Shown here: one piece after another, positions 17,852 through 36,776 of the stretch
Layout of the letters: each line of letters starts with the position of its first letter
Position numbering within the stretch: the stretch's first letter is position 1
The notes under the pieces: generated by a model
Told to the model about the DNA's origin: nothing
Databases searched by the model: none
The model's input: the letters and a program-made list of their open reading frames with translations, nothing else
Assembly: GCA_050253075.1 (NCBI GenBank)
Contig: JBFWJS010000002.1
Location: 288,001 to 352,000 of the forward strand
Direction: 5' to 3'
Length of the DNA: 64,000 bases
Source of the DNA: Deferribacterales bacterium
GTDB taxonomy: Bacteria > Chrysiogenota > Deferribacteres > Deferribacterales > Geovibrionaceae
Translations under genes and position numbers: made by a program

Positions 17852-18727
17852 TTATTTCACTACGAGCTTAAGAGCTACAGGAACGTAGGCCTCGACCTTT
17901 TTACCGTCGAGAACAGCTTTCGCAGTATCTACACCCATAGAGCCGATGAAAGCAGGCTGCTGTGCAACAGTTGCAGCAAGCTCGCCGTCTTTAACAGCTT
18001 TTACAGCGTCGTCTGTGGCGTCAAAGCCGACAACGAGTATCTTTCTCTGTGTTCCCTGAATAGCTTTCAGTGCGCCGAGAGCCATTTCGTCGTTATGAGC
18101 GAAAACAGCATCGATAGCAGGCTGAGCCTGAAGGATGTTTTCCATAACGTTCAGACCTTTTGTTCTGTCGAAGTCTGCTGCCTGCCTAGCTACAACTTTC
18201 ACTGCTGATCCTTCGATAGCAGAGTTAAAGCCCTTGCCTCTGTCTCTGGCTGCGGATGTTCCGGGGATACCTTCCAGCTCGACAACATTGCCTTTCTTAC
18301 CCAGCTTTTCCATGATGAACTCGCCTGCCATTTTACCGCCTGCGATGTTGTCGGATGCGATGTGAGAAACTACGTCGCCTCTGTTTGCGCCTCTGTCGAG
18401 TGTGATAACAGGCACTTTAGCTCTGTTTGCCATCTTGATGGCGTTGCCGACTGCATCTGAATCTGTCGGGTTGATGAGGATAGCCGCTACACCTCTGGAG
18501 AGGAGGTCTTCAACGTTTGCTATCTCTTTTGCAGGGTCGTTCTGAGAATCAAGGACGACCAGATCTATTCCAAGCTCTCCTGCTTTGCTCACTGCTCCGT
18601 CTTTCAGAGTGACAAAGAAGGGGTTGTTCAGTGTGGATACCACGAGGCCGACAGTCTTTCCTGCGGCGAGTACGGGCATAGCAGCAAATGCGACCAGCGC
18701 CAGTACTGTTACTAAAATCTTTTTCAT
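17852..18727 (-). CDS. rbsB: Ribose ABC transporter substrate-binding protein
   Basis: [34 protein letters not shown]; signal peptide. Confidence 0.95.
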
Positions 18728-18755
18728 AGCTGACTCCTTATACAAATGTGATTAC

Positions 18756-19694
18756 TCACTTCTTTCTATCCATAAGGACGGCGATGAGTATCACCGCTCC
18801 TTTTGCGATCATCTGATAATATGAAGATACGTTCATGAGATTCAGGGCGTTGTTCAGTATGCCTATGATAAGCGCACCGGTGAATGTGCCGAATATAGTG
18901 CCCAGACCGCCTGCGAGGCTTGTGCCCCCGAGCACAACGGCAGCAATGGCGTCCAGCTCATACCCTGCGCCCGCCGTGGGCTGTGCGGATGAGAGCCTTG
19001 ACGTGAGTATTATCCCCGCTATGGCTGCGGTCAGACCGCTGATGGCATAGACGGCTATCTTCACCCTGCTGACACGCACACCTGAGAGTCTGGATGCCTC
19101 TTCGTTACCGCCTATGGCATACACATATCTGCCGAATCTGGTGTGCTTCAGCACATAATACGACACAGCAAACACCGCTATCATCAGCACCACAGGCACA
19201 GGTATGCCGAAAATGTATCCTGTGCCGAACCATGCATATATATCTGCCGCCTCTTCGTATCCTGTGGATATCGGCTTCCCGTCGGTGAAGACGAGTGTCG
19301 CACCACGAAGGAGCGTCATCCCCACAAGGGTTGCTATGAAAGGCTGCACCTTGCCTTTTGTAATGGCGACACCGGCGAGCATACCTAGTATCGTACCCAG
19401 TGAAAGGGTTGTAAAGAGCGACACGGCAACGCCGTAGTCATGGGCTATCATAAAAGCAGACACGGCACCACATATGGCGAGTATCGACCCGACAGAGAGG
19501 TCTATCCCGCCAGTGAGAATAACAAATGTCATACCCGCAGCGATAACGGCGTTTATGGACGTCTGCCTGAGCACATTCATAATGTTGTTAACTGTCAGGA
19601 ATCTGGGGCTGATCAGGGATACAATAACCGCCAGAATTATCAGCCCTAGCAATGGTCTGAATTTTATAAGCATTTCTTTAGCTGTCATTTTCAT
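18756..19694 (-). CDS. rbsC: Ribose ABC transporter permease
   Basis: GGIDLSVGS, YELDAIAAVVLGGTSL. Confidence 0.93.
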   Translation of the reverse strand: MKMTAKEMLIKFRPLLGLIILAVIVSLISPRFLTVNNIMNVLRQTSINAVIAAGMTFVILTGGIDLSVGSILAICGAVSAFMIAHDYGVAVSLFTTLSLGTILGMLAGVAITKGKVQPFIATLVGMTLLRGATLVFTDGKPISTGYEEAADIYAWFGTGYIFGIPVPVVLMIAVFAVSYYVLKHTRFGRYVYAIGGNEEASRLSGVRVSRVKIAVYAISGLTAAIAGIILTSRLSSAQPTAGAGYELDAIAAVVLGGTSLAGGLGTIFGTFTGALIIGILNNALNLMNVSSYYQMIAKGAVILIAVLMDRKK

Positions 19695-19704
19695 CCGAAC
19701 ACCC

Positions 19705-21216
19705 CTAGCCTGCTCTTTTCGTCAGGTTTTTCATAGCGAAAGCCATTATGCTCTCCTGTGTGGCTTCCTCTTTTGAGAGTTCGCCTGCGACCTCTCCCGA
19801 GCTTATCACCAGTATCCTGTCGCTCATACCAATCACTTCGGGCATTTCGGAGGATATCAGTATTATGGCGAGCCCTTTCTCTTTCAGCTCGTTTATCAGC
19901 TCGTATATCTCTTTCTTCGCACCGACATCCACACCTCTGGTCGGCTCGTCCAGTATGAGCACCTTCGGCTCTGTGACCAGCCCTTTGCCTATGGCGACCT
20001 TCTGCTGATTTCCTCCGCTGAGGTTCACTACCTTCTGCATAGGTCCAGTGGTCTTTATGGACATTTTTTCGATATACATCTTCGAGGCTTCTTCCTCTTC
20101 GCCTGTGGAAATAAATCGGAATATATTCTGAAAGGCTTTCAAAGCGGGGAGAGTTATATTTTCCTTAATGCTCATGCCAAGTATCAGCCCGAGCTGTTTT
20201 CTGTCTTCGGAAACGTAGGATATGCCGTTTTCTATGGCGGATGAAGGGTGATTTATGCGGAGCTCCTTTCCGTCGATGACTATGCGTCCTTTGGAGAGAG
20301 CCATATATCCATAGACAGATTTTGCTATCTCGCTTCTGCCTGAGCCCATCAGCCCTGCGATGCCGAGTATCTCGCCCTTACGAACGGAGAATGTTACGTC
20401 TTTTATCGCCTGATTGGTCAGCCCCTCTACCTCAAACACGACATCGCCGTGCGTCGCTGTCGATATGGGGAAACGCTCGTCGAGAGCACGCCCCACCATA
20501 AGCTGTATGATCTTCTCCTCGGTAAGCTCGCTCACGGGCTTCATATCCACAAATGTGCCGTCACGCAGAACAGTTGCCCTGTCGCAAATATCGAATACTT
20601 CGGAAAGTTTATGAGAAATATAGACGAGTCCTTTCCCCTGACTTTTAAGCTCACGGATCACCTTATACAGGTTCTCCGTTTCCACATCTGTCAGCGAGTC
20701 TGTGGGCTCGTCCATGATGATTATCTTTGCGTTCATGGAGATGGCTTTGGCTATCTCGACTATCTGCGCCTTTCCGACACTGAGTGAAGACACCTTTGTC
20801 AGCGGAGACATCTCCGATTCTCCCAGCATGGCGAGGTATTCGGCTGCCCTTGCATTCATCTCTTTATACTTTATCCTGCCGTATACTGTCACAGGCTCAC
20901 GCCCGATGAATATATTCTCCGCAACGGTCAGCTCCGGCACAAGGTTCAGCTCCTGATGGATTATCGCTATCCCCTTTTTCTGTGCGTCTTTAGGGTCTCT
21001 GAGGTTCAGCGGTTCGCCTTCTAAGAATATCTCTCCGCCGTCTTTGGTATATACACCGCTGAGGATCTTCATCAGGGTGGATTTACCCGCCCCGTTCTCG
21101 CCCAGCAGAGCCATAATCTCCCCCGCATAGATATTGAACGAGACATCACCGAGAGCCTTTACACCGGGGAATCCCTTCACAATGTTCTTCATCTCCAGCA
21201 TTGGCTTGGCACTCAT
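19705..21216 (-). CDS. rbsA: Ribose ABC transporter ATP-binding protein (two ABC domains)
   Basis: GENGAGKST, LSGGNQQK, DEPTRGVDVGAK; TGATG coupling with rbsD. Confidence 0.93.
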   Translation of the reverse strand: MSAKPMLEMKNIVKGFPGVKALGDVSFNIYAGEIMALLGENGAGKSTLMKILSGVYTKDGGEIFLEGEPLNLRDPKDAQKKGIAIIHQELNLVPELTVAENIFIGREPVTVYGRIKYKEMNARAAEYLAMLGESEMSPLTKVSSLSVGKAQIVEIAKAISMNAKIIIMDEPTDSLTDVETENLYKVIRELKSQGKGLVYISHKLSEVFDICDRATVLRDGTFVDMKPVSELTEEKIIQLMVGRALDERFPISTATHGDVVFEVEGLTNQAIKDVTFSVRKGEILGIAGLMGSGRSEIAKSVYGYMALSKGRIVIDGKELRINHPSSAIENGISYVSEDRKQLGLILGMSIKENITLPALKAFQNIFRFISTGEEEEASKMYIEKMSIKTTGPMQKVVNLSGGNQQKVAIGKGLVTEPKVLILDEPTRGVDVGAKKEIYELINELKEKGLAIILISSEMPEVIGMSDRILVISSGEVAGELSKEEATQESIMAFAMKNLTKRAG

Positions 21217-21611
21217 CAGAACACCACTCCCGAATGCAGTATAACATTCGCATAAGGCGTGCATTCGCCTGTTCTTATCACAGCTTTGGCTTTCTTTGTG
21301 AGTTCTTTGAAATCCTCGTGGGACACATAGTGGTCTTCAGCCCCTTTGAGCTGTTTCTTGACGGCTTTTTCTATTGATGGATTATTAAAGTTTATCTCGT
21401 TTGCCAGAGTGTACTTCTCCACCTGAAGCTCCGAGACGACATTTTCCAAAACAGAGAGAAAGTCAGGCAGACCTTTACAAACGGCAAGATCAATTCGCTC
21501 CACACCGTCAGGTATGGGCAGTCCCGCATCGGCTATTACTATCATGTCCGTATGCCCCATCTCAGCGATAACAGCAGAGATACGGCTGTTTAAAAGTTTG
21601 CCTTTTTTCAT
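21216..21611 (-). CDS. rbsD: D-ribose pyranase
   Basis: [22 protein letters not shown]. Confidence 0.95.
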
Positions 21612-21660
21612 AGTCGACCCTCTCTATATATAAGAATACCAAAGTACACAAACATGGCAA

Positions 21661-21696
21661 CTAAAACTTTTAGCAAATTTTACTAAAAATTTTAGT
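21661..21696. promoter_or_regulatory. Tandem palindromes, candidate operator for the LacI-family regulator
   Basis: CTAAAACTTTTAG (21661-21673) and ACTAAAAATTTTAGT (21682-21696) between divergent rbsD and the regulator gene. Confidence 0.5.
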
Positions 21697-21800
21697 TCAT
21701 CTCACAAAAACATGTTATAATGTGTAATAGAAGATATCCCGATGTTTATCTATTTAATGCTAAGTGCTAAACAAATATAGACAAAACCAAGCAGAAGACT

Positions 21801-22850
21801 ATGAGCAAAAACATAACAGTAACAGAGATAGCAAAATTAGCAGAAGTTTCACCCTCCACGGTCTCCCTCGTTTTAAACGGTAAGCAGGGGGTGGGGAGTG
21901 AAGTACGTGAAAAGGTTCTGAAAATAGCCCGTGAGCACAACTATAAAGGGATGACAAGCGGCGGACTCAGCAGAAAGAACAAGACCATCTTATTTGTAAA
22001 CATAGTAAAACACGGACAGATACTTAATAAAAACCATAAGGCGTTCGTCGCCGACTATATAAACGGCGCAGTGACCGAAGCAGAGGAGAACGGCTATGCA
22101 CTAGAGGTGACAGCCTTCGACAGCTTCGACCCTGTGACGCTCACAGAGCACATAAACGCATCATACGCATCAGGCGCACTGATACTGGGCACAGAGCTGG
22201 AGGAAGCAGACATACTGCACCTCGCCACAGTCAAGATACCCGTCGTTTTTATAGACGTGCTCTCCCCTCATCTCCCCTTCGACTTTGTAGACATGAACAA
22301 CGACTCGTCTGTCTTCAACATCATGTCATATATAAAAGAGATGGGACATACATCCACAGGAATAGTGACAGGCTCTCATATCACGAGCAATTTCGCCCAC
22401 AGGATGCGCAGCTACGAGCGGTCTCTCGAACTGCTCGGAATAGATTACGACAAAAATTTCGTCTTCACCGTTAATTCGAAATATGAAAAAGCATATGAAG
22501 ACATGAGCACAATACTGGATAAAAAGCCGAAGATGCCAACAGTGCTCTTCTGCGTAAACGACATAATAGCCCTCGGCTGTATGAAAGCACTGAAAGAACA
22601 CGGATACCGCATACCCGAGGATATATCAATAGCCGGCTTTGACAACCTTGCCATGAGCTCTATGGCAGAACCGCCGTTAAGCACTGTAAAAGTATCCAAG
22701 AGAAGGATAAGCATAGCCGCTGTCGATCTTCTGCTTAAGCGGATGAACAGCGGAGAACGCACCCCATATGAAAAAATAATGATAGGCGGTGAAGTGATGA
22801 AAAGAGAGAGCATAAGGGACATGAAAGCCCCTCAGAAGGAGGAATCATGA
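21801..22850 (+). CDS. LacI-family transcriptional regulator of the ribose locus
   Basis: HTH IAKLAEVSPSTVSLVLN; IPEDISIAGFD, PPLSTV. Confidence 0.9.
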   Translation: MSKNITVTEIAKLAEVSPSTVSLVLNGKQGVGSEVREKVLKIAREHNYKGMTSGGLSRKNKTILFVNIVKHGQILNKNHKAFVADYINGAVTEAEENGYALEVTAFDSFDPVTLTEHINASYASGALILGTELEEADILHLATVKIPVVFIDVLSPHLPFDFVDMNNDSSVFNIMSYIKEMGHTSTGIVTGSHITSNFAHRMRSYERSLELLGIDYDKNFVFTVNSKYEKAYEDMSTILDKKPKMPTVLFCVNDIIALGCMKALKEHGYRIPEDISIAGFDNLAMSSMAEPPLSTVKVSKRRISIAAVDLLLKRMNSGERTPYEKIMIGGEVMKRESIRDMKAPQKEES

Positions 22851-23755
22851 GCAGATTCTGCATAGCAGGAAGCATAAATATGGATCTGGTGACAAAGGTT
22901 TCACGCTTCCCGAAACCGGGCGAAACAATATCAGGGCTGGCATTTAACACCTTCACCGGCGGTAAAGGGGCTAATCAGGCGGTGGCTCTGGCAAAACTTG
23001 GTGCCGAAACATCCATGGTAGGCAGAACAGGAAGCGACATTTATGCCTCTCAGTATATGTCATATTTCAAAACGCTGAACATAGACACGGCAGGGATAGA
23101 GGCTGTGGATACATCCACAGGGATAGCAGCCATCAGCGTAGACGGTAAAGGCGAAAACTGCATCATATACGTCGAAGGCGCAAACGGCACTGTAGACCCA
23201 GCATACATCCGCTCGAAAGCTGAAATAATAGCAAAGGCAGACTATCTGCTCCTTCAGCTTGAGATACCTATGGATGCAGTATGTGAAGCGGCTAAGACAG
23301 CATCGGAAAACGGCAGGACGGTAATACTCGACCCTGCGCCGGCAAAGGCAGTGCCGAACGAACTGCTTAAACACACCACGATAATAACCCCGAACGAGAC
23401 CGAAGCAGAGATATTAACAGGGATAAAACCGAGCAGTGACGCCGACATCGAAAAGATAGGCAAAGCACTTGCAAATAAAGGCGTTTCCACCGTTATCATC
23501 AAAGCTGGAAGCCGTGGAGCATACATATATCAAAGCGGAAAAATAACCCATGTAGAAGGCTTTAAAGTAGACACGGCAGACACCACCGCAGCGGGCGATA
23601 CCTTCAACGCAGGGCTGGCATATGCCCTCGGCACAGGAAAGAAGATCAAGGATGCAGTCCTTTTTGCAAATGCGGCGGCAGCCATCTCCACCACAAGGGT
23701 CGGAGCACAGAGCGGAATGCCTTCACTAGGCGATGTGAAAGCCCTCCTCGGATGA
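22847..23755 (+). CDS. rbsK: Ribokinase
   Basis: GSINMD, GGKGANQAVA, PNETEAE, DTTAAGDTF. Confidence 0.93.
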   Translation: MSRFCIAGSINMDLVTKVSRFPKPGETISGLAFNTFTGGKGANQAVALAKLGAETSMVGRTGSDIYASQYMSYFKTLNIDTAGIEAVDTSTGIAAISVDGKGENCIIYVEGANGTVDPAYIRSKAEIIAKADYLLLQLEIPMDAVCEAAKTASENGRTVILDPAPAKAVPNELLKHTTIITPNETEAEILTGIKPSSDADIEKIGKALANKGVSTVIIKAGSRGAYIYQSGKITHVEGFKVDTADTTAAGDTFNAGLAYALGTGKKIKDAVLFANAAAAISTTRVGAQSGMPSLGDVKALLG

Positions 23756-24048
23756 TATGAAAACAGCTTCAACATATCGCTGAATAATAAATCACAGATA
23801 AATAACAATTGCATGTTCAAAGGCTTACACTCGTAAATCAATATAGAAGCGAATCATAATATCATTAGTAAAGAGGAGAATACTCAATTATTTTTCAACC
23901 TACAAAAAAGGTAAAATGTTGCCATTCTCCTTATTATCAATTCTTTAGCGTATTATCGGAAAATATAATAGCGTTGTAATTATTTGATAAAAAACATAGA
24001 TATAGCATTTTAGCAAAACATCAAATATCTTTTGTGCAAGAAATAGTT

Positions 24049-25062
24049 ATGGTAGAAAAACTTACACTTTCAAAAGACATTCAGAATGCCAGGGAGCTGA
24101 TCGAGTCTCACGGTCTGACATATGATGAGAAGTTCGACACCCTTGCCGGTATATTCGAAGGTGAAAACCTCATCGCTACCGGTGCGCGCAAAAACGATAT
24201 ACTCAAAATGTTCGTAGTGACACAGAGCTTCTCAGGAGCGGATAACCTCGGTGAAATGTGTACATTCCTGCTGAATGACGCCGTCGCATCAGGCTTCAGC
24301 AATGTATTCTTATTTACTAAAACCGAATACGCACAGAGCTTTACCCAACTTAATTTCAAAACTCTGGCAACAGGCACAAAAGCTGTGCTGATGGAGTTCG
24401 GCAACGGCTTCTCTAAATACATCGAAAGCATCAAGCCTCTGGTACACACCGAAAATAACGGTGCAATAGTGATGAACTGCAACCCATTCACCAACGGTCA
24501 CAGATACCTCGTTGAACAGGCAGCATCAAAGGTAGAGACACTCATACTATTCGTAGTGAAAGAGGAACGCTCGCTCTTCACATTTGAAAGCAGGCTGGAG
24601 CTGGTGAAACAAGGGACGGCACACATAGATAACGTGGTGGTCACAGACACATCCAGCTATGCCGTTAGTGATGCGACATTTCCTTCATATTTCATCAAAA
24701 ACACGGATGAAAAAATTCAGGCACAGATAGAGCTCGACCTGAACATCTTTGCAAAAAAGATAGCACCTGAGCTGAACATCAGGAAACGATTCGTAGGCAC
24801 TGAGCCTTTCTGCGACACCACAGGCAGATACAACGACATGATGAAGGATATACTCCCCTTAAACGGAATAGAGTTAGTAGAGATCCCCCGTGTAAAGCAT
24901 AAGGGTGAAGAGGTCAGCGCATCAAAAGTGCGCAGGGCTCTGGCCGAGGAAAACTATGAGATAATAAGGGAGTGTGTGCCTGAGTCCACATACAGCTATC
25001 TGTGCTCAAAAGAATTTCAGGATAAAATTAAAGATATAAATATCAATGAAAGGAGACATTAA
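24049..25062 (+). CDS. citC: [Citrate (pro-3S)-lyase] ligase
   Basis: VMNCNPFTNGHRYL, SDATFPSYF, RFVGTEP, VSASKVR; alternative GTG start at 24034. Confidence 0.93.
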   Translation: MVEKLTLSKDIQNARELIESHGLTYDEKFDTLAGIFEGENLIATGARKNDILKMFVVTQSFSGADNLGEMCTFLLNDAVASGFSNVFLFTKTEYAQSFTQLNFKTLATGTKAVLMEFGNGFSKYIESIKPLVHTENNGAIVMNCNPFTNGHRYLVEQAASKVETLILFVVKEERSLFTFESRLELVKQGTAHIDNVVVTDTSSYAVSDATFPSYFIKNTDEKIQAQIELDLNIFAKKIAPELNIRKRFVGTEPFCDTTGRYNDMMKDILPLNGIELVEIPRVKHKGEEVSASKVRRALAEENYEIIRECVPESTYSYLCSKEFQDKIKDININERRH

Positions 25063-25325
25063 TGAACATCATTAAAAACGCTCAGGCAGGCACTATGCAG
25101 TCCAGCGACCTTATGGTTTTCGTAGAGCCGTCGGACAGCCTGATCATAGAGATAGAGTCTTCTGTTTTAAAGCAGTTCGGACATCTCATCCGTGAAAAGA
25201 CCGAACAGGTGCTCGCTAAGAACGAAGTAAAAAAAGGACTTATAAAGATAATAGACAGAGGTGCTCTGGACTATGCCATAGAGGCAAGGATAGAGACCGC
25301 AATACAGAGAAGCTGCGGAGAATAA
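25062..25325 (+). CDS. citD: Citrate lyase acyl carrier protein (gamma subunit)
   Basis: AGTMQSSD prosthetic-group Ser motif, KQFG, DRGALD. Confidence 0.93.
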   Translation: MNIIKNAQAGTMQSSDLMVFVEPSDSLIIEIESSVLKQFGHLIREKTEQVLAKNEVKKGLIKIIDRGALDYAIEARIETAIQRSCGE

Positions 25326-25327
25326 CA

Positions 25328-25807
25328 ATGCACAAGGAACTTTGGTATAAAGAATACGACCCGGCCAGACGCTTCATAGTGAAGATAACTCCGGGGAGCA
25401 ACATCGTCAGAAAGCTGAAGAAATTCGCCAAAACTGAAAATGTAAAGAACGCCGTAATACTCTCCGCCGTGGGCTCAGTAAAAAATGTAACCTTCCGAGG
25501 CGTAAAAACCGGGGCGAAGCTGCCCATAACAGAGCCGAGGATAATGATACACAATGTCGAAGGTCCGCTTGAGCTCTTAGGGCTGGAGGGGAATATTTTC
25601 CCCGATGAGAGCGGCGAACCGGATGCACACCTGCACATAATGATGGCGAAGTCTTCAGGCGAGGTGATAGGCGGGCACATGTATGACTGCGACGTCTTTG
25701 CATCGTGTGAGATACTCCTGCAAGAGCTCATCGTCACCGGTGTGGAGAGACACATCTCCGCCACAGGCGGCACATCCACAATATTTATCGAAGGTGAAGA
25801 GATATGA
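25328..25807 (+). CDS. PPC/DUF296 domain protein
   Basis: SAVGS, ELLGLEGNI, AHLHI...VIGGH. Confidence 0.85.
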   Translation: MHKELWYKEYDPARRFIVKITPGSNIVRKLKKFAKTENVKNAVILSAVGSVKNVTFRGVKTGAKLPITEPRIMIHNVEGPLELLGLEGNIFPDESGEPDAHLHIMMAKSSGEVIGGHMYDCDVFASCEILLQELIVTGVERHISATGGTSTIFIEGEEI

Positions 25808-26718
25808 GCAAGCTGCGCAGATCCATCCTTTACGTCCCCGGAAACATGCCGTCCATGCTGCAGAACATTCCCGTCTTCAAATCTGACGGTATATTCATAG
25901 ACCTCGAAGACGCAGTCCCCCTTTCGGAAAAGGACGCAGCCAGAAAGATAGTAAGAAAGTTCCTCGAAAACTATAAAAACCGCACAAGCGAAACATTCGT
26001 CCGCATCAACGGACTGGAGACAAAGTGGGGCTATGACGACCTGCGTGAAATACTCCCCGCAAAGCCCGACGGAGTGCGCCTGCCGAAAGCAGACACGCCC
26101 GAGATAGTCGAACGCCTCGACACATTCCTCACAGAGATGGAGGAGGAGCTAGGCTTCGAGATAGGACATTTTAAGATAATTCCATCCATAGAAAACGCAC
26201 TCGGCGTCATAAACTGCATCAAAACTGCACGTACGACAAAGCGTGTGATAGCCCTCGCATTCGGTGCAGAGGACTATACGGCGAGCCTTGAGGTTCAGCG
26301 TACGAAATCAGGCGAGGAGCTCTTCCACGCAAGGACAAGGGTCATCTGGGCAGCAAAAGCTGCGGGCATACAGGCGATAGACACCGTCTTCACCGATGTT
26401 GCCGATATGGACAGCTTCCGCCGTGAATGTGAGCTTATCAAGACACTCGGCTTTACAGGCAAATCCCTCGTAAACCCTCGCCAGATAGACGTTCTGCATG
26501 AAGTTTTCGCTCCGAAACGTGAGGAGATAGAATACGCCAACGACGTCATGGAAGCCATCATAGAAGCACGTAAGATGGGAACAGGCGTTATATCCCTGCG
26601 AGGAAAGATGATCGACGCACCTGTTGTAAAGCGTGCGTACACAGTTTTGAAAACAGCATACGCACAAGGGCTCATAGAGATCGAGCCTGATGAGGAGGTA
26701 ATCTATGGTGCGCAATAG
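25804..26718 (+). CDS. citE: Citrate lyase beta subunit (citryl-ACP lyase)
   Basis: RRSILYVPG, DLEDAV, VRIN, FGAEDY, GKMIDAP. Confidence 0.92.
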   Translation: MSKLRRSILYVPGNMPSMLQNIPVFKSDGIFIDLEDAVPLSEKDAARKIVRKFLENYKNRTSETFVRINGLETKWGYDDLREILPAKPDGVRLPKADTPEIVERLDTFLTEMEEELGFEIGHFKIIPSIENALGVINCIKTARTTKRVIALAFGAEDYTASLEVQRTKSGEELFHARTRVIWAAKAAGIQAIDTVFTDVADMDSFRRECELIKTLGFTGKSLVNPRQIDVLHEVFAPKREEIEYANDVMEAIIEARKMGTGVISLRGKMIDAPVVKRAYTVLKTAYAQGLIEIEPDEEVIYGAQ

Positions 26719-28243
26719 CCTCGGCAGACTGCTCCCCGAAGAATACAACGGCAGAAAGGTGATCCCGTACAGCGACCCTTTCAGTGTGAAGCCAAGCGGT
26801 GAAACAGCCACCAGAGAGCTCCGCAGAGTGAACAGCACAGATAATAAGCTGCTCGGCTCCATCAGAGAAGCAATAGACGCCGTAGGGCTGAAAGACGGCA
26901 TGACGATAGCCACTCACCACCACCTGAGAAACGGCGATGCCGTGCTCGGCGCCGTGGTAAAGGCGATAGATGAAAAAGGACTTAAAAATATAAAGATAGC
27001 ATCCAGCTCGGTCCACCCCGTACACGCAGAGATCATCCCATACATCGAAAAGGGTGTAATAACAGCATTTGAGTGCGGTGTGAACGGACCGATAGGCGAA
27101 AAAGCATCCAGAGGCGAACTTAACTGTCCGATAATCGTGCGCAGTCACGGCGGACGTGCCAGAAGCCTCATGGAAGGAAGCGTTGTGGTAGACGCCGCCT
27201 TCATAGCTGCCCCTGCATGTGACGAATACGGCAATATGCTCGGATACAGCGGACAGTCCGCATGCGGTTCTCTCGGATACGCAAAGGTGGACGCATCCTA
27301 TGCGAAAAAGGTCGTAGCCGTCACAGACAACCTCGTCCCATTCCCTGCCGCACCTTATTCCATCCCTCAGTCTGAGGTGGACTACGTGGTAAAGGTAGAC
27401 TCGCTGGGCGACCCTTCGAAGATAGTATCCACCACCACAAGGATAACAACAGACCCCGTGGGGCTCCAGATAGCTAAATACGCGGCCAGCGTGATCGAAT
27501 CCTCAGGTCTGCTCAAAAACGGCTTCTCCTTCCAGACAGGCTCAGGGGGGATATCTCTCGCCGTTGCAGATAATGTGAAGAAGATGATGCTGGAGAAAGA
27601 GATAAAAGGGAGCTTCGGATGCGGAGGCATCACAGGATACTTCGTAGACATGCTCGAACAAGGGCTTTTCCAGACGCTCTTCGACGTGCAGTGTTTCGAC
27701 CTGAAAGCCGTGGAATCCATAGGCAGAAACAGAAACCACGTGGAAATAAGCGCAGACCTCTATGCCAATCCTTTCAACTGCGGAGCGATAGTGAACAAGC
27801 TCGACACCGTTATCCTCGGTGCAACAGAGATAGACACCAGCTTCAACGTGAATGTGAATACAGAGTCCAACGGACTGCTCCTGCACAACACAGGCGGACA
27901 CTCTGACACTGCCGCAGGTGCGAAACTCTCCATAATAGTCGCTCCGTCCATCAGAGGCAGGCTGCCCATCATCCGTGAGGAGCTGACAACCATAACCACC
28001 CCCGGTGAGACTGTTGACGTGGTCGTCACTGAGCTGGGCATAGCAGTAAACCCGAAAAACGAAGACCTGAAAAGGGAACTGATAAAGAACAAGCTCCCCG
28101 TGAAAGATATAAACCAGCTCCATGAAGAGATCATCGCCATTACAGGAAAGCCGAGACCCCTCGAATTCACCGATGAGATCATAGCTCTGATAGAGTACAG
28201 GGACGGAACGATAATAGATGCCGTTAGAAAAATTAAAGCGTGA
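26705..28243 (+). CDS. citF: Citrate lyase alpha subunit (citrate CoA-transferase)
   Basis: HHHLRNGD, RSHGGR, FQTGSGG, GGHSDTAAG. Confidence 0.95.
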   Translation: MVRNSLGRLLPEEYNGRKVIPYSDPFSVKPSGETATRELRRVNSTDNKLLGSIREAIDAVGLKDGMTIATHHHLRNGDAVLGAVVKAIDEKGLKNIKIASSSVHPVHAEIIPYIEKGVITAFECGVNGPIGEKASRGELNCPIIVRSHGGRARSLMEGSVVVDAAFIAAPACDEYGNMLGYSGQSACGSLGYAKVDASYAKKVVAVTDNLVPFPAAPYSIPQSEVDYVVKVDSLGDPSKIVSTTTRITTDPVGLQIAKYAASVIESSGLLKNGFSFQTGSGGISLAVADNVKKMMLEKEIKGSFGCGGITGYFVDMLEQGLFQTLFDVQCFDLKAVESIGRNRNHVEISADLYANPFNCGAIVNKLDTVILGATEIDTSFNVNVNTESNGLLLHNTGGHSDTAAGAKLSIIVAPSIRGRLPIIREELTTITTPGETVDVVVTELGIAVNPKNEDLKRELIKNKLPVKDINQLHEEIIAITGKPRPLEFTDEIIALIEYRDGTIIDAVRKIKA

Positions 28244-28709
28244 GATACTGCAAAGCAGAGATGACCGACAGCAGGAGATAGACAGACTGGTACAGGGTGG
28301 TAAACCCCTTGTGTCCCTCTCCGCAAATATCCCGGGTGATGATAAAAAGCCCGCAGGATTCAACGATATCTTTGCGCATGTCTGTGGTTTGGTCAAGGAG
28401 AGCGCAGAGCTCGTATATACCTGCGACGATGCTCTCGGGCCGTTCGCCCTCTTCCTGTCTGAGACGCCTCAGACTGAGCTGAAGCGTGCCATGGTAACCA
28501 TAGAAAATGCCCATGCATGGGGCAGACTGATAGACATCGATGTTTATGACGATGCAGGACTGCCAATAAGCAGAGCCTCGCTCGGCTTTGAAGAAAGAGG
28601 ATGCCTGATATGCTCCGACACGGCGAAAAGCTGTATCAAAGCAGGCAGACACAGTATGAAAGACCTGATGAGGGCTGCAAATGATATTATCGACAGATAC
28701 CACTGCTGA
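28218..28709 (+). CDS. citX: Apo-citrate lyase phosphoribosyl-dephospho-CoA transferase
   Basis: NIPG, GRLIDIDV, CLIC...C...H. Confidence 0.88.
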   Translation: MPLEKLKREILQSRDDRQQEIDRLVQGGKPLVSLSANIPGDDKKPAGFNDIFAHVCGLVKESAELVYTCDDALGPFALFLSETPQTELKRAMVTIENAHAWGRLIDIDVYDDAGLPISRASLGFEERGCLICSDTAKSCIKAGRHSMKDLMRAANDIIDRYHC

Positions 28710-29475
28710 TATTAATAAGCTGACTAATAAACTAACAGAGGGGTCAAGGGTAGAGCTATATCTCACACCGAAGCCCGGACTGGTGGACATGCTGAATAAC
28801 GGCTCCCACACAGACCTTGATCTGCTGAAGATGACAAAATCCATACACATCATTGAAAGATATATGAACCGCATAGCCGACAGCCTCACAGACGGACAGC
28901 CTCTGGCTGATCAGGTGCGTCTGGGCAGAGAAGCCGAGGCAGAGATGTATGACAAACTCGGCACGAACACACATAGGGGATACATATTCCTCTCCGGTCT
29001 GATAGCCTCCGCCGCTTATCACAGCCCGAAAGACATCAGAGGGATGATAAAACTGCTGTCACTCGAACTTTTCGCAGATGTGCGGGACACAAACAGCAAC
29101 GGACAGAAAGTGCGTGAAAAGCACAACGAAGGCGGTATAGCCGAAGAGTGCCTGAAAGGTCTGCCGTCTATATTTGAAAATTCGCTCCCTGCATTTCGTA
29201 AAGCCTATGAAAAGACAGGCTGTTTCCGCACCGCATCTTTCTTTGCACTGGCTAATCTGATGCAGAATGTGACAGACACCACAGCCATACACAGATGCGG
29301 TCTCGAAGGGCTGGACATCATTAAAAAAGACGGTAAAATTCTGGAAGAGCTCATAAGGTCGGGACTGCCGTTCGATGACTTCCTTAAAAAGCGCAATGAG
29401 CAATACGTAAAGCTGAATCTGACGATGGGCGGTATAGCCGACATGCTCGGCATCACGGTAGCACTAGCCCTCTAA
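28681..29475 (+). CDS. citG: Triphosphoribosyl-dephospho-CoA synthase
   Basis: TPKPGLVD, GSHTD, NTHRG, MGGIADML. Confidence 0.9.
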   Translation: MILSTDTTADINKLTNKLTEGSRVELYLTPKPGLVDMLNNGSHTDLDLLKMTKSIHIIERYMNRIADSLTDGQPLADQVRLGREAEAEMYDKLGTNTHRGYIFLSGLIASAAYHSPKDIRGMIKLLSLELFADVRDTNSNGQKVREKHNEGGIAEECLKGLPSIFENSLPAFRKAYEKTGCFRTASFFALANLMQNVTDTTAIHRCGLEGLDIIKKDGKILEELIRSGLPFDDFLKKRNEQYVKLNLTMGGIADMLGITVALAL

Positions 29476-29899: not shown

Positions 29900-31129
29900 A
29901 TGAAAGCAAAAGAAAGAAAGAAGCTGTGCATCGCCATGGTCGGACTGCCCGCACGGGGTAAATCCACCCATGCGAAGAAGATAATAGAGAACCTGTCGAA
30001 GGAAAATCTGAACGTTGACGTTTTCAACAACGGAGACCTTCGCCGTAAATATATCAAAGAAAACACTGCATCGTACGAATTCTATAACCCAGACAATGCA
30101 AACGCCGCAAAGATACGGGAAGAACTCGCCATGATAAACATCTATGATGCAAAAGAATTTCTGGACACCACAGGAGACATAGCCATCATAGACGCAGCAA
30201 ACGTCACTCGCACACGCAGGCAAAAGATCATAGACGAAATGGACGGATACAACATACTCTTCATCGAGTGCATCAACGAGGAGGAGGACTTCCTCAAGAT
30301 ATGCATAGATACCAAAACCGAACTGCTCGAATTCAGCCATCTGCCGAAAGAAGAGGCACACCAGAACTTCCTCAAACGCATTGAATATTACAAGCTGAGA
30401 TATGATGAGCTCACCGACGAGCCAAACTACATCGTCATAGACTCGCTGAATAATAAAGTGCTCCGAGAGCGTGATCAGGGGATCCCTTACTATCACCTAA
30501 TCAGAGACATTCTCGTATCGGACTGGATACACAACCTATATCTCATCCGCCACGGTCAGACATACTTCAACCTTGAAAACCGCATAGGAGGAGACTCCGA
30601 GCTGACCGAAAGGGGCATCAGGCAGGGCTTAGACCTCGCAAAGCATTTCAAAGACACAGACATACACTATGTATTCAGCAGTACAAAAAAGCGCACTCTG
30701 GCAATAGCGGACGAGATAAAGAAAGTAAAACCGACTGTGGAGATCATCCCTTTTGAAGAATTTGACGAGATAGACACCGGGGACTGCGACTCCATCACAT
30801 ATGACGAGCTCAGGCTGAACTATCCCGACCTGTACGAGACCAGATCAAAGGACAAATACAACTTTACCTATCCAAACGGAGAGAGCTACCGCACCCTGCG
30901 CAGACGTGTGCAGATAGGTCTGAAAAAGGCGCTCTTCCTCAGCGGAGGCGCAGAAAACATTATCATCATCGGTCACAGAGCCGTAAACCGCATAATACTC
31001 TCCCTCTTCGAGTTTAGAAACGTGGATGATGTGCCGTACATCTACATCCCTCAGGACAGGTATTTCCAGATAACGGCGACCAGATATAAGAAACTTATAG
31101 AAATGAAGAAATTCACCGAATTCGATTAA
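29900..31129 (+). CDS. Bifunctional 6-phosphofructo-2-kinase/fructose-2,6-bisphosphatase family protein
   Basis: Kinase MVGLPARGKS, VFNNGDLRR, DAANVTRTRR; phosphatase LIRHG, RIGGD, DEID, YPNGESY, GHRAV. Confidence 0.88.
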   Translation: MKAKERKKLCIAMVGLPARGKSTHAKKIIENLSKENLNVDVFNNGDLRRKYIKENTASYEFYNPDNANAAKIREELAMINIYDAKEFLDTTGDIAIIDAANVTRTRRQKIIDEMDGYNILFIECINEEEDFLKICIDTKTELLEFSHLPKEEAHQNFLKRIEYYKLRYDELTDEPNYIVIDSLNNKVLRERDQGIPYYHLIRDILVSDWIHNLYLIRHGQTYFNLENRIGGDSELTERGIRQGLDLAKHFKDTDIHYVFSSTKKRTLAIADEIKKVKPTVEIIPFEEFDEIDTGDCDSITYDELRLNYPDLYETRSKDKYNFTYPNGESYRTLRRRVQIGLKKALFLSGGAENIIIIGHRAVNRIILSLFEFRNVDDVPYIYIPQDRYFQITATRYKKLIEMKKFTEFD

Positions 31130-31168: not shown

Positions 31169-32851
31169 TCAGAATGTCATGCCCGCCTGAACCAGCAGTC
31201 TGCTGTTATACTCGGGCTCGCTTTCCACCTTAGCCCCGCCCACTGCATAAGCGAAATAAGACTTCATAAAAAATGTTTTATAATAGGCGTAAAATCCAGC
31301 CCCCACATCTGAGAGACTTCTCCCGCCTTCGTCGGAGAAATCATCCTGAGGTTTCACATATGCAGTATCGCCGAAAACACTGACCATAGTGACCAGCTTA
31401 TTCACATCAGGCAGTCTGTAAAAGAGCTCTGCATTCAGGATATATCCGTTCTCTGCGCTCTGCTCACTGCTTGGGAAAACTCTCACACCGTAAGCTCCGC
31501 CTATTGAGAGGTCTTCGCTTCCGTCGAGGTTTTTATCATTCAGTACTTGCTGAGCCTGAAAAGACGTAGAAAGACTCCATTGACGGTTGAAGTCAACTTT
31601 CTGCTTTGCTGATGCAGCCAGAATGTGGTAAGTCCCCTGAGTATCAGCACCGATAGCGTCTAAATCTTCGGCTTCGGAATTATCAAAGCTGAGAGTGCCA
31701 ATAGTATATGAACCTTTTGCCTCGGATGTTGTTCTGAATCCAAACATAGAATAAGTTTTCTTATAGCTGATGCCGGCTTTTGCAGAAAGAGTGTCTTTTT
31801 CATCAACACTGTCAAAAAGTTCTATTTCATCCTTCATCTGTCTGGATGTAAATGCGAGGGTCGCATATGCGCTCTCGAACTTTGAGAGGAGCAGCGGATA
31901 GCTGAACTCCATTTCGATAGTGTCGGAATCACCCTTTGCATCGAGGGAATCATACTCTTCTTCCAGCGAATATGCCGTCTTTGAATATGATATCTCTCCT
32001 GTGAGACCGTTTGAAGCAAGGGGGAGTTTATACGCTGCTCTGCCGTTCACCAGACCGCCTGTGGTGCTGGTGATACCGCTGATGAAAAGTCTGTCGCCAA
32101 TTCCTAAAGGAGAGTTTATCCCCGCACCTGCCATCACTCTGTTCGTACCGGTATATCTGAGTCCGTAGTTGTCTCCTATGAGATACCCATACACTCTCGG
32201 AGTGGCAATGACGCTTATGTCGAAGCTGCTCGTTCCGAATTCATCCCCGGGCTTGATGTTTATCTTATTCAGATTCGCACCGGGAGTTTTATTCACCAAT
32301 ATCATCTGACGCTCTACATCTTCGGCTTTGATAGTCTTCCCTTCTGTCATTTTGCCTATGATGCCGTTTATCCTTTTACTGCTTACGAGTGATTTGTTGT
32401 CTACGTTCACAGAGCCGTACTCACCCTCGAGTATCACTATCTCGATGATGCCGTCTATTATCTCCTGCTTAGGCACGTATGCCTTCGCAACGAAAAATCC
32501 ATTGTCTCTGTAATACTTTGTAAGCTCTTCGGCAACGGCATTTATCTCCGCCAGCGTCAGCTCACGGTTTATATTCTCAGGCTTGTTTGCTATGTCTGTC
32601 AGCACCTCTGTGCTGATTGCTTTATTTCCTGAAACAGTGAAACCTTTGACAAGCATTGTCCGCTGGTCTGTCATCTTCATCTGAGGTCTGAGGTTTTCCT
32701 TCAGTTCAGGCAGAGGGCTCTGCTTTTTCGGGATATCCTGCGGAGGTTCGACCTGTTTCAGCGCATCGCCTATATTAGGAACAGGCGCCGCATATGCAGC
32801 AGCAGCGAAGCTCACTATCAAAAGTGCTGTTAATAATCTATTTATTTTCAT
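31169..32851 (-). CDS. Two-partner secretion outer-membrane transporter (TpsB; ShlB/FhaC/HecB family)
   Basis: Signal peptide, POTRA (YYRDNGFFVAKAYVPKQ), GGAYGVRVF (VRGY-like), C-terminal Phe. Confidence 0.9.
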   Translation of the reverse strand: MKINRLLTALLIVSFAAAAYAAPVPNIGDALKQVEPPQDIPKKQSPLPELKENLRPQMKMTDQRTMLVKGFTVSGNKAISTEVLTDIANKPENINRELTLAEINAVAEELTKYYRDNGFFVAKAYVPKQEIIDGIIEIVILEGEYGSVNVDNKSLVSSKRINGIIGKMTEGKTIKAEDVERQMILVNKTPGANLNKINIKPGDEFGTSSFDISVIATPRVYGYLIGDNYGLRYTGTNRVMAGAGINSPLGIGDRLFISGITSTTGGLVNGRAAYKLPLASNGLTGEISYSKTAYSLEEEYDSLDAKGDSDTIEMEFSYPLLLSKFESAYATLAFTSRQMKDEIELFDSVDEKDTLSAKAGISYKKTYSMFGFRTTSEAKGSYTIGTLSFDNSEAEDLDAIGADTQGTYHILAASAKQKVDFNRQWSLSTSFQAQQVLNDKNLDGSEDLSIGGAYGVRVFPSSEQSAENGYILNAELFYRLPDVNKLVTMVSVFGDTAYVKPQDDFSDEGGRSLSDVGAGFYAYYKTFFMKSYFAYAVGGAKVESEPEYNSRLLVQAGMTF

Positions 32852-32871
32852 TATTTAATCCTTACCTATAC

Positions 32872-35800: not shown

Positions 35801-36557
35801 TATTATTCACAACGCCTGATATAAGCTCCTCTGCTGATGATGTGGTGAGGAATATATCACCGCCGTCTGCTATCACGGCACCGCTGTTCTCCACCAGAGC
35901 ATCCACGACGCTCTTATCCACTGTCAGCTCCACGAGAGAGTTGCCGTTAAGATTGATGGTGGCAGAGTCCGCACCGGACATATATATCTTTCCACGGACT
36001 ACATTTATGCTGCCTGAGTTACCTACATCAGCACCCAGTAGAGCCGCATAGCCCGCATCGGATATAGTGATGGAGCCCATGTTGATTACAGAAGCGTCCG
36101 AAGCATCTTTAAAGCTGTAATTGCCGTCCATGAAGTCTTTGTCAGACAGGCTCATTGTCGTAGCGACCAGACCTGCCGTGTTCACCGACGCATTTTTGCC
36201 GAAGAGCACTCCGTTTGAGTTCAGTATGAATACCTGTCCGTTAGCATTCAGCGCTCCGTTGATCACAGAGCTTTCGCTGCCGACTATGCGGTTCAGAGTG
36301 ATAGAGTCCTTATTCGGCTGTCTGAAATTGACCGTCTCGCCCCTGTCGATACTGAACGACTGCCAGTTGATAGCCGCATTTTGACTTGATTGGTTGATAG
36401 TTGTTGTCCCTGTAGTCTGAGTGATAGCTGCACTACCAGCCGAGACTACTCCTCCCGATGGACCTGCATCTGCAATAGCAACAGACAGCAGGAACGAGGC
36501 TGAAATCAGAAAGGTCATACCTTTCCTGATAATCCAAAACGGATTACGCGCCTTCAT
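32872..36557 (-). pseudogene. TpsA filamentous-haemagglutinin-like exoprotein (TPS domain, GLUG-type repeats, three MBG-like repeats) split by a 1-nt frameshift near 34240
   Basis: INWQSFSI and NSNGVLFG TPS motifs; restoring one base joins ORF 34215-36671 to the frame of ORF 32872-34023 with no intervening stop. Confidence 0.8.
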
Positions 36558-36776
36558 AAATATAACTCCTAGCTTATTAAATAGTAAGTTGTGTGTAATA
36601 TTGAAAAATTGTGTTTGATAAGCCCTGACATAAACAAATAATAAAAAAGTATAACAACTTTTTTTTATCAATACAAACTAAACTGATTCTAAATTTGCAT
36701 ATTTTTATAAAAAACATGCATAAACTCAATGATTTGAAAATTGGACAATTAGCCAATTATGGCACATGTGCACAAA

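What the first reader, a model, noticed from the sequence alone, without database searches (positions are those of the whole stretch)
25328..25807. PPC/DUF296 protein embedded in the citrate lyase operon: candidate oxaloacetate decarboxylase or lyase deacetylase
Seen: the gene sits between citD and citE (2-nt gap, 4-nt overlap) and has an HxH...H triad. No oadGAB, malic enzyme or citrate carrier is adjacent. Known: canonical operons run citCDEFXG uninterrupted; PPC/DUF296 shares the AF0104/ALDC/PTD012 zinc fold with acetolactate decarboxylase, a beta-keto-acid decarboxylase; citrate lyase yields oxaloacetate, a beta-keto acid. Inference: this may be a soluble Zn oxaloacetate decarboxylase, or a thioesterase acting on acetyl-CitD.
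Basis: partly seen in the sequence, partly recalled or inferred. Interest (0 to 1): 0.7.

Follow-up and report, generated by a model that had tools for sequence, protein, structure and literature searches.

The report
Fourth partner protein of citrate lyase
A small protein of an uncharacterised family is a fixed part of one widespread type of bacterial citrate-splitting enzyme operon and most likely docks directly on the enzyme's cleaving subunit, probably as a regulatory or scaffolding partner rather than as the decarboxylase first proposed.

Summary
The PPC/DUF296 gene marks a clade of citrate lyase operons. It lies directly before citE in 80 of 80 named-genome loci. It co-occurs exactly with this CitE/CitF type in 39 of 201 Desulfuromonadia and 13 of 61 relatives of the host. 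One betaproteobacterial lineage (9 genomes) lacks it. There CitE alone changed (23 of 167 conserved columns; CitF 2 of 279), mainly in helix alpha4. A complex model then placed PPC's subfamily-specific loop (60-71) on that helix. It scored 0.69 against a best control of 0.00; this mark was reached by 116 of 157 solved complexes and 2 of 215 mismatched pairs. So PPC is probably a CitE-binding fourth component. Catalysis is less certain. Many hosts carry other OadA-like proteins. His117 is replaced in some operon copies. A sister group in the same clade lacks the His triad (0 of 120) but keeps most of the docking loop; its gene context could not be seen. Best reading: a non-catalytic regulatory or scaffold subunit (0.5). 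Tethered oxaloacetate decarboxylase 0.2, deacetylase 0.13. Nothing has been tested at the bench.

The parts
24034..25062 (+). citC, citrate lyase ligase (acetylates the ACP arm); the true start may be the ATG at 24049
   Evidence: PF08218; TIGR00124 282.8 bits over cut-off 262.1; homologues align from residue 6
25062..25325 (+). citD, acyl carrier protein (gamma subunit)
   Evidence: PF06857; TIGR01608 78.9 over cut-off 63.5
25328..25807 (+). cit-associated PPC/DUF296 protein, proposed CitE-binding fourth component
   Evidence: PF03479; PPC fold, Z 17.7 to 2dt4; synteny; complex model
25505..25540 (+). PPC residues 60-71 (KTGAKLPITEPR), subfamily-specific loop predicted to dock on CitE
   Evidence: K60, G62, A63, P66, R71 invariant in 92 of 92; an insertion relative to solved PPC proteins; contacts 60-64 and 70-71
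25628..25678 (+). PPC H101, H103 and H117, putative metal site
   Evidence: Aligns with the HxH..GGH motif of AF0104 and PH0802; H101 and H103 92 of 92, H117 88 of 92; metal binding itself not tested
25804..26718 (+). citE, citryl-ACP lyase (beta subunit), of a distinct clade
   Evidence: PF03328; TIGR01588 341 bits, below the 443 cut-off; clade supported at 99
26098..26145 (+). CitE residues 99-114 (helix alpha4), predicted docking site for PPC
   Evidence: E103, D106, T107, T110, E111, E114 invariant in 92 of 92 PPC-positive CitE; drifts in the PPC-less lineage; interface
26705..28243 (+). citF, citrate:acetyl-ACP transferase (alpha subunit)
   Evidence: PF04223; TIGR01584 647.7 over cut-off 501.45
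28218..28709 (+). citX, holo-ACP synthase
   Evidence: PF03802; TIGR03124 110.8 over cut-off 105.25
28681..29475 (+). citG, triphosphoribosyl-dephospho-CoA synthase
   Evidence: PF01874 157 bits; TIGR03125 below its cut-off

Best explanation
The gene encodes a fourth, accessory component of one clade of ACP-dependent citrate lyases. It folds as a PPC protein (supported by prediction), probably a trimer (inferred from solved relatives). It binds the outer face of CitE through a subfamily-specific loop (residues 60-64 and 70-71, plus 109-110 of the next protomer) on CitE helix alpha4 (99-114). This docking is inferred from gene loss, conservation and a complex model; I put it at about 0.85-0.9. 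Its conserved job is most likely non-catalytic. It would stabilise or cross-link CitE subunits and/or tune lyase activity through a pocket that holds a metal (His3) in most members and Gln/Tyr/Arg in a sister group. Such a pocket could bind a carboxylate metabolite without needing Lewis-acid catalysis. The ligand and the direction of the effect are inferred, not shown. Control of this kind would suit hosts that also run citrate synthase, where an open lyase wastes acetyl-CoA.
For: Synteny and co-occurrence: 80 of 80 loci; the same 39 of 201 genomes for both genes; the same 13 of 61; 6 of 6 clade-type CitE among 151 genomes of the order of G064. Other CitE types examined lack PPC nearby. The PPC-citE junction is -8 to +8 nt in 88 of 91 pairs. 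Gene loss: the PPC-less operons nest inside the PPC-positive CitF clade. There 23 of 167 conserved CitE columns changed, against 2 of 279 in CitF, 1 of 41 in CitD, 0 of 26 in CitX and 0 of 55 in CitG; 8 of the 23 fall in one 22-residue window (permutation p 0.0056). I noted helix alpha4 and the PPC loop as the expected interface before sending the job. The model gave that interface: score 0.69, best of 3 controls 0.00, runs agreeing in at least 95% of contacts, partner pLDDT at least 88. The mark was reached by 116 of 157 solved and 2 of 215 mismatched pairs; these counts hold only roughly here. At the 12 modelled CitE contact positions, pairwise identity is 62.6% against 87.6% elsewhere among 11 PPC-less sequences, and 82.0% against 88.6% among 19 PPC-positive ones. 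For non-catalysis: H117 is Q or N in 4 of 92, 8 of 74 and 4 of 19 operon copies, in overlapping sets. A group inside the same clade (support 100) has the full triad in 0 of 120 proteins but keeps 39 other conserved positions, including G62, A63, P66 and R71. Plant PPC domains act as trimeric interaction modules (PMC4209074).
Against: No binding or activity has been measured. The loss is one evolutionary event, and in the CitE tree those sequences fall outside the PPC-positive ones, so replacement of the PPC-citE segment by recombination is possible. The complex model used alignments of my own from the same loci; its interface is small (20-22 contacts). The gene context of the His-less group was not seen, and K60 is Q there, so they may serve another partner. 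The full triad is intact in 88 of 92 and 65 of 74 operon copies, which shows strong selection on the metal site. The two fold relatives with an established reaction are both decarboxylases. PPC-less G440 also has citrate synthase, which weakens the futile-cycle argument.
Confidence: 0.5

Rival explanations
1. PPC is a metal-dependent oxaloacetate decarboxylase tethered to CitE. It takes the product of the cleavage, pulling the reaction forward and limiting product inhibition.
For: Fold shared with ALDC and with C11orf54, now shown to be a beta-keto-L-gulonate decarboxylase (PMC12337341). It docks on the subunit that releases oxaloacetate. No malic enzyme was found in 80 of 80 loci, and a PYC/OadA-like gene in only 2. 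The host's only PF02436 match is a 1158-aa frame of pyruvate carboxylase length.
Against: A second PF02436 match occurs in 27 of 39 PPC-positive versus 20 of 162 PPC-negative genomes (kin are not independent, and most second matches were not listed, so their type is unseen). Frames of OadA/5S length occur in 3 of 5 named hosts. ALDC and BKGD act on 2-hydroxy-3-oxo acids, whose hydroxyl helps chelate the zinc (PMC12337341); oxaloacetate has none. PPC covers only one of ALDC's domains. The triad is eroded or lost within the clade.
Confidence: 0.2
2. PPC is a citrate lyase deacetylase (thioesterase) that docks on CitE and hydrolyses the acetyl-thioester on the CitD arm, switching the lyase off.
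For: Citrate synthase is present in 3 of 3 PPC-positive genomes tested, so an off-switch would be useful. C11orf54 has weak esterase activity on a model ester (PMC12337341). A deacetylase activity (EC 3.1.2.16) was described in Rhodopseudomonas gelatinosa, and I know of no gene for it (recalled).
Against: CitD barely changed when PPC was lost (1 of 41). PPC-less genomes keep citC (2 of 2 tested) and one has citrate synthase. The recalled size of the R. gelatinosa enzyme (about 7 kDa subunits) does not fit a 159-aa chain. A tightly coupled partner that destroys the active form would itself need an off-switch. The triad is dispensable in part of the clade.
Confidence: 0.13
3. PPC binds CitE and has another small-molecule activity, such as oxaloacetate keto-enol tautomerisation or clearing a stalled acyl-ACP.
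For: A conserved metal site placed on the lyase subunit; lyase inactivation during turnover is known for other citrate lyases (recalled).
Against: No specific sequence or context evidence; the same erosion of the triad applies.
Confidence: 0.07
4. PPC does not touch the lyase. It is a co-inherited gene with a separate role, for example the DNA-binding role that databases attach to the family.
For: Databases name these proteins 'DNA-binding protein'. One lineage keeps a full cit set without it.
Against: CitE-specific, clustered change on loss; the model interface matches the prior prediction. In plants DNA binding comes from the AT-hook (PMC4209074), which is absent here. No subfamily member was found away from citE in any locus with enough flank.
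Confidence: 0.1

Closest known systems
Citrate (pro-3S)-lyase CitDEF with CitC, CitX, CitG (EC 4.1.3.6; Klebsiella/E. coli type)
   Same: All six genes, same order; citC, citD, citF and citX pass the NCBIfam cut-offs.
   Different: An extra conserved gene between citD and citE; CitE of a separate clade (below the TIGR01588 cut-off) with an invariant acidic helix alpha4; usually no carrier, oad or mae next to it. No solved holo-complex turned up; CitF matches only 2hj0 and 1xr4.
Prokaryotic PPC/DUF296 proteins (AF0104 2h6l, PH0802 2dt4, 2hx0, 3htn)
   Same: Same fold (Z 16-18) and HxH..GGH motif.
   Different: A 5-10 residue insertion forming the docking loop, a fixed operon, and a predicted partner; the solved ones are titled hypothetical or putative DNA-binding.
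Acetolactate decarboxylase (4bt2) and C11orf54/BKGD (1xcr)
   Same: Related domain fold and three-His site (Z 10.0 and 4.9; PMC12337341).
   Different: They are 220-313 residue proteins acting on 2-hydroxy-3-oxo acids; PPC is one domain, and their catalytic residues were not mapped onto it.
Plant AHL PPC domain
   Same: Trimeric PPC used as a protein-interaction module (PMC4209074).
   Different: Fused to an AT-hook and binds transcription factors; here it stands alone and is predicted to bind a metabolic enzyme by a different loop.
Geobacter bemidjiensis cit cluster Gbem_3862-3856 (PMC2996986)
   Same: Seven locus tags for six named genes; named relatives (Citrifermentans bremense, Geomonas) carry the PPC at this position.
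   Different: The passages I saw do not discuss the seventh gene; they suggest a reverse-TCA role for the lyase, untested.

Membership tests
PPC/DUF296 (PF03479) | Pfam profile over the curated cut-off | tested here: met
   97.9 bits against 25
PPC/DUF296 (PF03479) | PPC fold | tested here: met
   Model pLDDT 85.8; Z 17.7 to 2dt4, rmsd 3.3, 141 aligned
PPC/DUF296 (PF03479) | Homotrimer | not tested
   Assumed from solved relatives (PMC4209074); modelled as three copies, where only CitE was scored
ALDC/BKGD beta-keto-acid decarboxylases | Three-His metal site | tested here: met
   H101, H103, H117 in this protein; not in all clade members
ALDC/BKGD beta-keto-acid decarboxylases | Full 220-313 residue chain rather than the one shared domain | tested here: not met
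   159 aa; aligns to residues 101-225 of 4bt2 only
ALDC/BKGD beta-keto-acid decarboxylases | Equivalents of the catalytic residues (e.g. BKGD H217, R263) | not tested
   No residue-level structural alignment was returned
Oxaloacetate decarboxylase (functional class) | Oxaloacetate to pyruvate turnover | not testable with these tools
   Needs an assay
Oxaloacetate decarboxylase (functional class) | Stands in for Oad/Mae (hosts lack them) | tested here: not met
   Two malic enzymes in the host; second PF02436 match in 27 of 39 against 20 of 162; OadA/5S-length frames in 3 of 5 named hosts
Citrate lyase deacetylase (EC 3.1.2.16) | Hydrolyses acetyl-S-ACP of citrate lyase | not testable with these tools
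   Needs an assay; no reference sequence was available
Citrate lyase deacetylase (EC 3.1.2.16) | Tracks with citrate synthase and with CitD features | tested here: inconclusive
   Citrate synthase in 3 of 3 PPC-positive and 1 of 2 PPC-less genomes; CitD changed at 1 of 41 columns on loss
Citrate lyase CitDEF (EC 4.1.3.6) | citC, citD, citF, citX equivalog models | tested here: met
   All four over cut-off
Citrate lyase CitDEF (EC 4.1.3.6) | citE and citG equivalog models | tested here: not met
   341 against 443 and 128 against 272; the best hit for CitE is still TIGR01588
Citrate lyase CitDEF (EC 4.1.3.6) | Citrate as substrate | tested here: inconclusive
   CitMHS-family gene in 8, TctA in 7, IDH in 9, AcnB in 5 of 80 loci; no clear citrate carrier in the host
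AHL-type DNA-binding proteins | AT-hook motif next to the PPC domain | tested here: not met
   Only PF03479 matched; no Arg-Gly-Arg core in the sequence

The most novel reading that the evidence does not exclude
This clade's citrate lyase is a four-component machine. A PPC trimer bridges CitE subunits and its pocket reads a TCA-cycle carboxylate, switching the lyase on cytoplasmic citrate rather than imported citrate. The pocket uses a metal in some phyla and an arginine in others. That would let acetate-respiring anaerobes with citrate synthase also run citrate cleavage, possibly in a reverse TCA cycle, and would give prokaryotic DUF296 proteins a defined role as enzyme-docking sensors.
Probability: 0.2. 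Interest if true: 0.8.

Novelty: new variant of a known kind. Interest (0 to 1): 0.62.

Why it matters
Citrate lyase is a textbook three-subunit enzyme, and my searches found no paper assigning a partner or reaction to a prokaryotic DUF296 protein. This finding gives the family a named partner, a residue-level interface and two natural controls: a lineage without the gene, and a group without the metal site. The question of what the domain does becomes directly testable with a pull-down and three assays. It also concerns common subsurface and sediment anaerobes (Geomonas, Citrifermentans, Desulfuromonas, Propionivibrio, Anaeromyxobacter, Deferribacterales), in which the role of citrate lyase is itself unsettled.

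Tried and rejected
1. A single-sequence scan of genome contigs found nothing; the alignment scan worked.
2. 'Strain-specific insertion' is rejected.
3. 'Obligate catalytic subunit' is rejected: 9 genomes have citD 41-55 nt from citE, and the two tested keep citC and have no PF03479 match (both are MAGs, completeness not given).
4. No second, independent loss was found in 80 metagenome loci, 151 genomes of the order of G064 or 301 genomes of the phylum of G061 (2 hits, both seen before).
5. The context of the His-less group could not be obtained: no relative in viral contigs or plasmids, and the Myxococcota search returned only His-containing cit copies.
6. Fusion partners among 15 longer PPC relatives gave only one kinase. 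The Atlas returned only PCC clusters plus a GNAT fusion.
7. The promoter/terminator scan gave no plus-strand site upstream of or inside citC-citE, so it was uninformative.
8. Sequencing runs: no RNA holder listed.
9. The careful CitF tree did not finish; quick trees were used.
10. Earlier scan findings: none for this sequence or place. Eight notes on other citrate-lyase-like operons do not concern this gene and were not used.
11. Papers: 'citrate lyase' + 'DUF296' gave 0. The other searches gave nothing on this gene in their listings. I did not search 'PCC domain', 'PD1-like' or 'COG1661', and most subscription papers, including the old deacetylase work, are not held.

Full report
Observation. 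The ORF at 25328-25807 encodes 159 residues, begins 2 nt after citD and overlaps citE by 4 nt. It is PF03479 (97.9 bits) and has no NCBIfam match. Its neighbours are citC, citD, citE, citF, citX and citG. H101, H103 and H117 align with the HxH..GGH motif of AF0104 and PH0802. The predicted structure (pLDDT 85.8) matches solved PPC proteins (Z 16-18), then acetolactate decarboxylase (Z 10.0, rmsd 5.6, 115 aligned) and C11orf54 weakly (Z 4.9). The window lies on contig C2 of a 99.9% complete genome. Named close hits include Limisalsivibrio, Deferribacter and Desulfuromonadales, so the host is probably a member of Deferribacterales (inference).

It marks a clade. Among 61 genomes (host plus relatives), 13 have a close homologue (60% identity or more). 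The same 13 have CitF over the cut-off; a fourteenth, G047 (64% complete), has three more distant cit loci without PPC. All 12 non-host loci read citC-citD-PPC-citE-citF. A scan of named genomes confirmed 100 relatives and returned the best 80, from Desulfuromonadia, Deferribacterales, Anaeromyxobacteraceae, Betaproteobacteria and one Neptunomonas. PPC precedes citE in 80 of 80 and follows citD in 79; the other is at a contig end.

Searching from the CitE side avoids circularity. In 201 Desulfuromonadia, 39 have CitE at 67% or more and the same 39 have PPC at 53% or more. Five more distant citE loci fetched from that set lack PPC. Among 151 genomes of the order of G064, 6 of 10 CitE hits are clade-type and all 6 have PPC; the 4 distant ones do not. 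Of 80 metagenome loci (best of 443), 74 have PPC, 1 lacks it and 5 are cut upstream. Kin are not independent, so these counts show fixation in a clade, not a test statistic.

A natural deletion points to CitE. In 201 Rhodocyclaceae, 6 have CitF and 3 have PPC. One of the three without is of a more distant type; G328 and G440 are clade-type (CitF 67-70%, CitD 65-70%) with citD next to citE. Both keep citC elsewhere and have no PF03479 match. Their CitF nests among PPC-positive operons under branches with support 96-98, which reads as a loss. Against 154 PPC-positive loci, four sequences of this lineage differ at 23 of 167 conserved CitE columns. They differ at 2 of 279 in CitF, 1 of 41 in CitD, 0 of 26 in CitX and 0 of 55 in CitG. 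Eight of the 23 lie in one 22-residue window (p 0.0056), the helix after barrel strand 4 (strand and helix numbering is my reading of the CitE fold). Against this reading: in the CitE tree these sequences branch outside the PPC-positive set, so a recombinational swap of PPC-citE cannot be excluded, and it is a single event.

Complex model. I recorded helix alpha4 and the PPC loop 57-71 as the expected interface and then modelled three PPC copies with one CitE, using 92-row alignments of PPC-positive operons only. The score was 0.69 and the best of 3 controls 0.00. The runs agreed in at least 95% of contacts and partner pLDDT was at least 88. The mark was reached by 116 of 157 solved complexes and 2 of 215 mismatched pairs; these counts hold only roughly for this job. 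Contacts: PPC 60-64 and 70-71, and 109-110 of the next copy, with CitE 99-114, 120 and 140. The loop is an insertion relative to solved PPC proteins. My PDB sequence searches showed no entry pairing these families, so a pass from memory is unlikely. The model supports binding; it does not show it.

A larger sample then tested the interface on sequences the model had not seen. Among 81 genomes around G328, 32 matched; I analysed 28 of the 30 loci returned and left out 2 distant ones. Nine lack PPC and 19 have it. With two metagenome sequences added, the 11 PPC-less CitE are 62.6% identical at the 12 contact positions and 87.6% elsewhere. The 19 PPC-positive ones are 82.0% and 88.6%, with E103, T107, T110, E111 and E114 invariant. 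IDH stands upstream of citD in both kinds.

Is it a decarboxylase? For: ALDC and C11orf54 are beta-keto-acid decarboxylases (PMC12337341, passages and section 8), and PPC would sit on the subunit that releases oxaloacetate. None of 80 loci has a malic enzyme and 2 have a PYC/OadA-like gene. The host's only PF02436 match is of pyruvate carboxylase length. Against: the host has two malic-enzyme genes. Three of 5 named hosts have 507-734 residue PF02436 frames. A second PF02436 match occurs in 27 of 39 PPC-positive against 20 of 162 PPC-negative Desulfuromonadia; most second matches were not listed, so their type is unseen. G. bemidjiensis is annotated with two oxaloacetate decarboxylases (PMC2996986, passages). 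Nine loci carry a carboxyltransferase-type sodium pump beside citC, and the host has one elsewhere. This suggests oxaloacetate can drain through succinate and methylmalonyl-CoA (inference).

Is it a deacetylase? Citrate synthase is present in G000, G061 and G062, but also in PPC-less G440; it was not found in G328. CitD hardly responded to the loss. The Rhodopseudomonas gelatinosa enzyme and its small size are recalled, not read.

The metal site can go. H101 and H103 are invariant in 92 operon copies, but H117 is Q or N in 4 and in 8 of 74 metagenome copies, one of the 74 being partial. A profile search of 1.84 billion representatives showed close members without the histidines. Searching with one of them gave 566 hits; the best 120 include proteins named from Holophaga, Geothrix, Mesoterricola and Terracidiphilus. 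None of the 120 has the full triad; 65 have Gln/Tyr/Arg. The 13 His-less rows placed in a tree fall inside the cit-PPC clade (support 100). Thirty-nine positions stay conserved in both groups. The conserved positions that switch are mostly the metal site (D99, H101, H103, H117), plus K8, K60, I67 and S110. An arginine in place of the metal would keep anion binding and lose Lewis-acid catalysis (inference). The weak point is that I could not see where these genes lie, and two of the switched residues are modelled contacts.

Mechanism. Shown by sequence: fixed position, tight junctions (88 of 91 within -8 to +8 nt), and CitE-specific drift on loss. Supported by model: docking of the PPC loop on CitE alpha4. 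Inferred: trimer, near-stoichiometric expression, and a scaffold or allosteric role with a carboxylate-binding pocket. The host has citrate synthase and no clear citrate carrier: no 2HCT or TctA, and only weak CitMHS-family matches. Its lyase may therefore act on internal citrate and need control. Other hosts do have CitMHS-family or TctA genes beside the operon (8 and 7 of 80). I give 0.5 to the non-catalytic reading, 0.2 to a tethered decarboxylase, 0.13 to a deacetylase, 0.07 to another activity and 0.1 to no binding.

Literature. No held paper has both 'citrate lyase' and 'DUF296'. I saw only search listings. PMC2996986 (passages; 12 of 15 supplement files searched, no hit for the middle locus tags) lists seven tags for six named genes and proposes a reverse-TCA role; the three unseen files could mention the gene. 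PMC6896113 and PMC13186404 (passages) discuss carbon fixation in Deferribacter through citrate synthase and name no cit operon in those passages. D. autotrophicus has a 64% identical PPC (P0026; context not seen). PMC4209074 (passages) gives the trimer and the plant interaction role. PMC4885859 (passages) had nothing on citrate. Absence from this library is not absence from print.

Verdict. A real, conserved and apparently undescribed fourth component of a citrate lyase clade, with a specific predicted interface on CitE and an open biochemical role. New variant of a known kind; interest 0.62.

Noticed in passing
window 29900-31129 (+): A bifunctional 6-phosphofructo-2-kinase / histidine-phosphatase gene (PF01591 plus PF00300), an architecture best known from eukaryotes (recalled), just downstream of citG. 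It was not found near the cit operon in the 80 named loci.
   Followed up: partly
window 17852-23755: Ribose-type ABC uptake genes with rbsD on the minus strand, divergent from a LacI regulator and a PfkB kinase (rbsD, LacI and PfkB; the ABC genes by eye). Not conserved beside cit elsewhere.
   Followed up: partly
window 31169-36671 (-): By eye, a two-partner secretion pair: an outer-membrane transporter-like ORF (31169-32851) and a repetitive exoprotein that appears as two ORFs (34215-36671 and 32872-34023), possibly broken between them. Not scanned.
   Followed up: no
L031, L035, L063, L064, L066, L081, L086, L087, L092 upstream of citC: A carboxyltransferase / biotin carrier / OAD_beta sodium-pump cluster (OAD_gamma called in 7) abuts citC in 9 of 80 loci; 6 of them also have RraA-like and TctA genes.
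   Followed up: partly
L171:5779-6948, L173:7017-8171: Other Desulfuromonadia lyase operons have CitD fused to CitE in one reading frame and no PPC.
   Followed up: partly
L095 and L097: One Rhodocyclaceae genome holds two near-identical citD-PPC-citE-citF copies; the second lacks adjacent citC, citX and citG. It shows the PPC travelling with the structural genes.
   Followed up: no
P0026 (Deferribacter autotrophicus): This autotroph has a 64% identical PPC, which hints at an ACP-type citrate lyase not mentioned in the passages read on its carbon fixation.
   Followed up: partly
Atlas structure hit for window 25328-25804: A 67-member cluster fuses a GNAT acetyltransferase to a PPC domain, a lead for PPC as a regulatory domain.
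   Followed up: no
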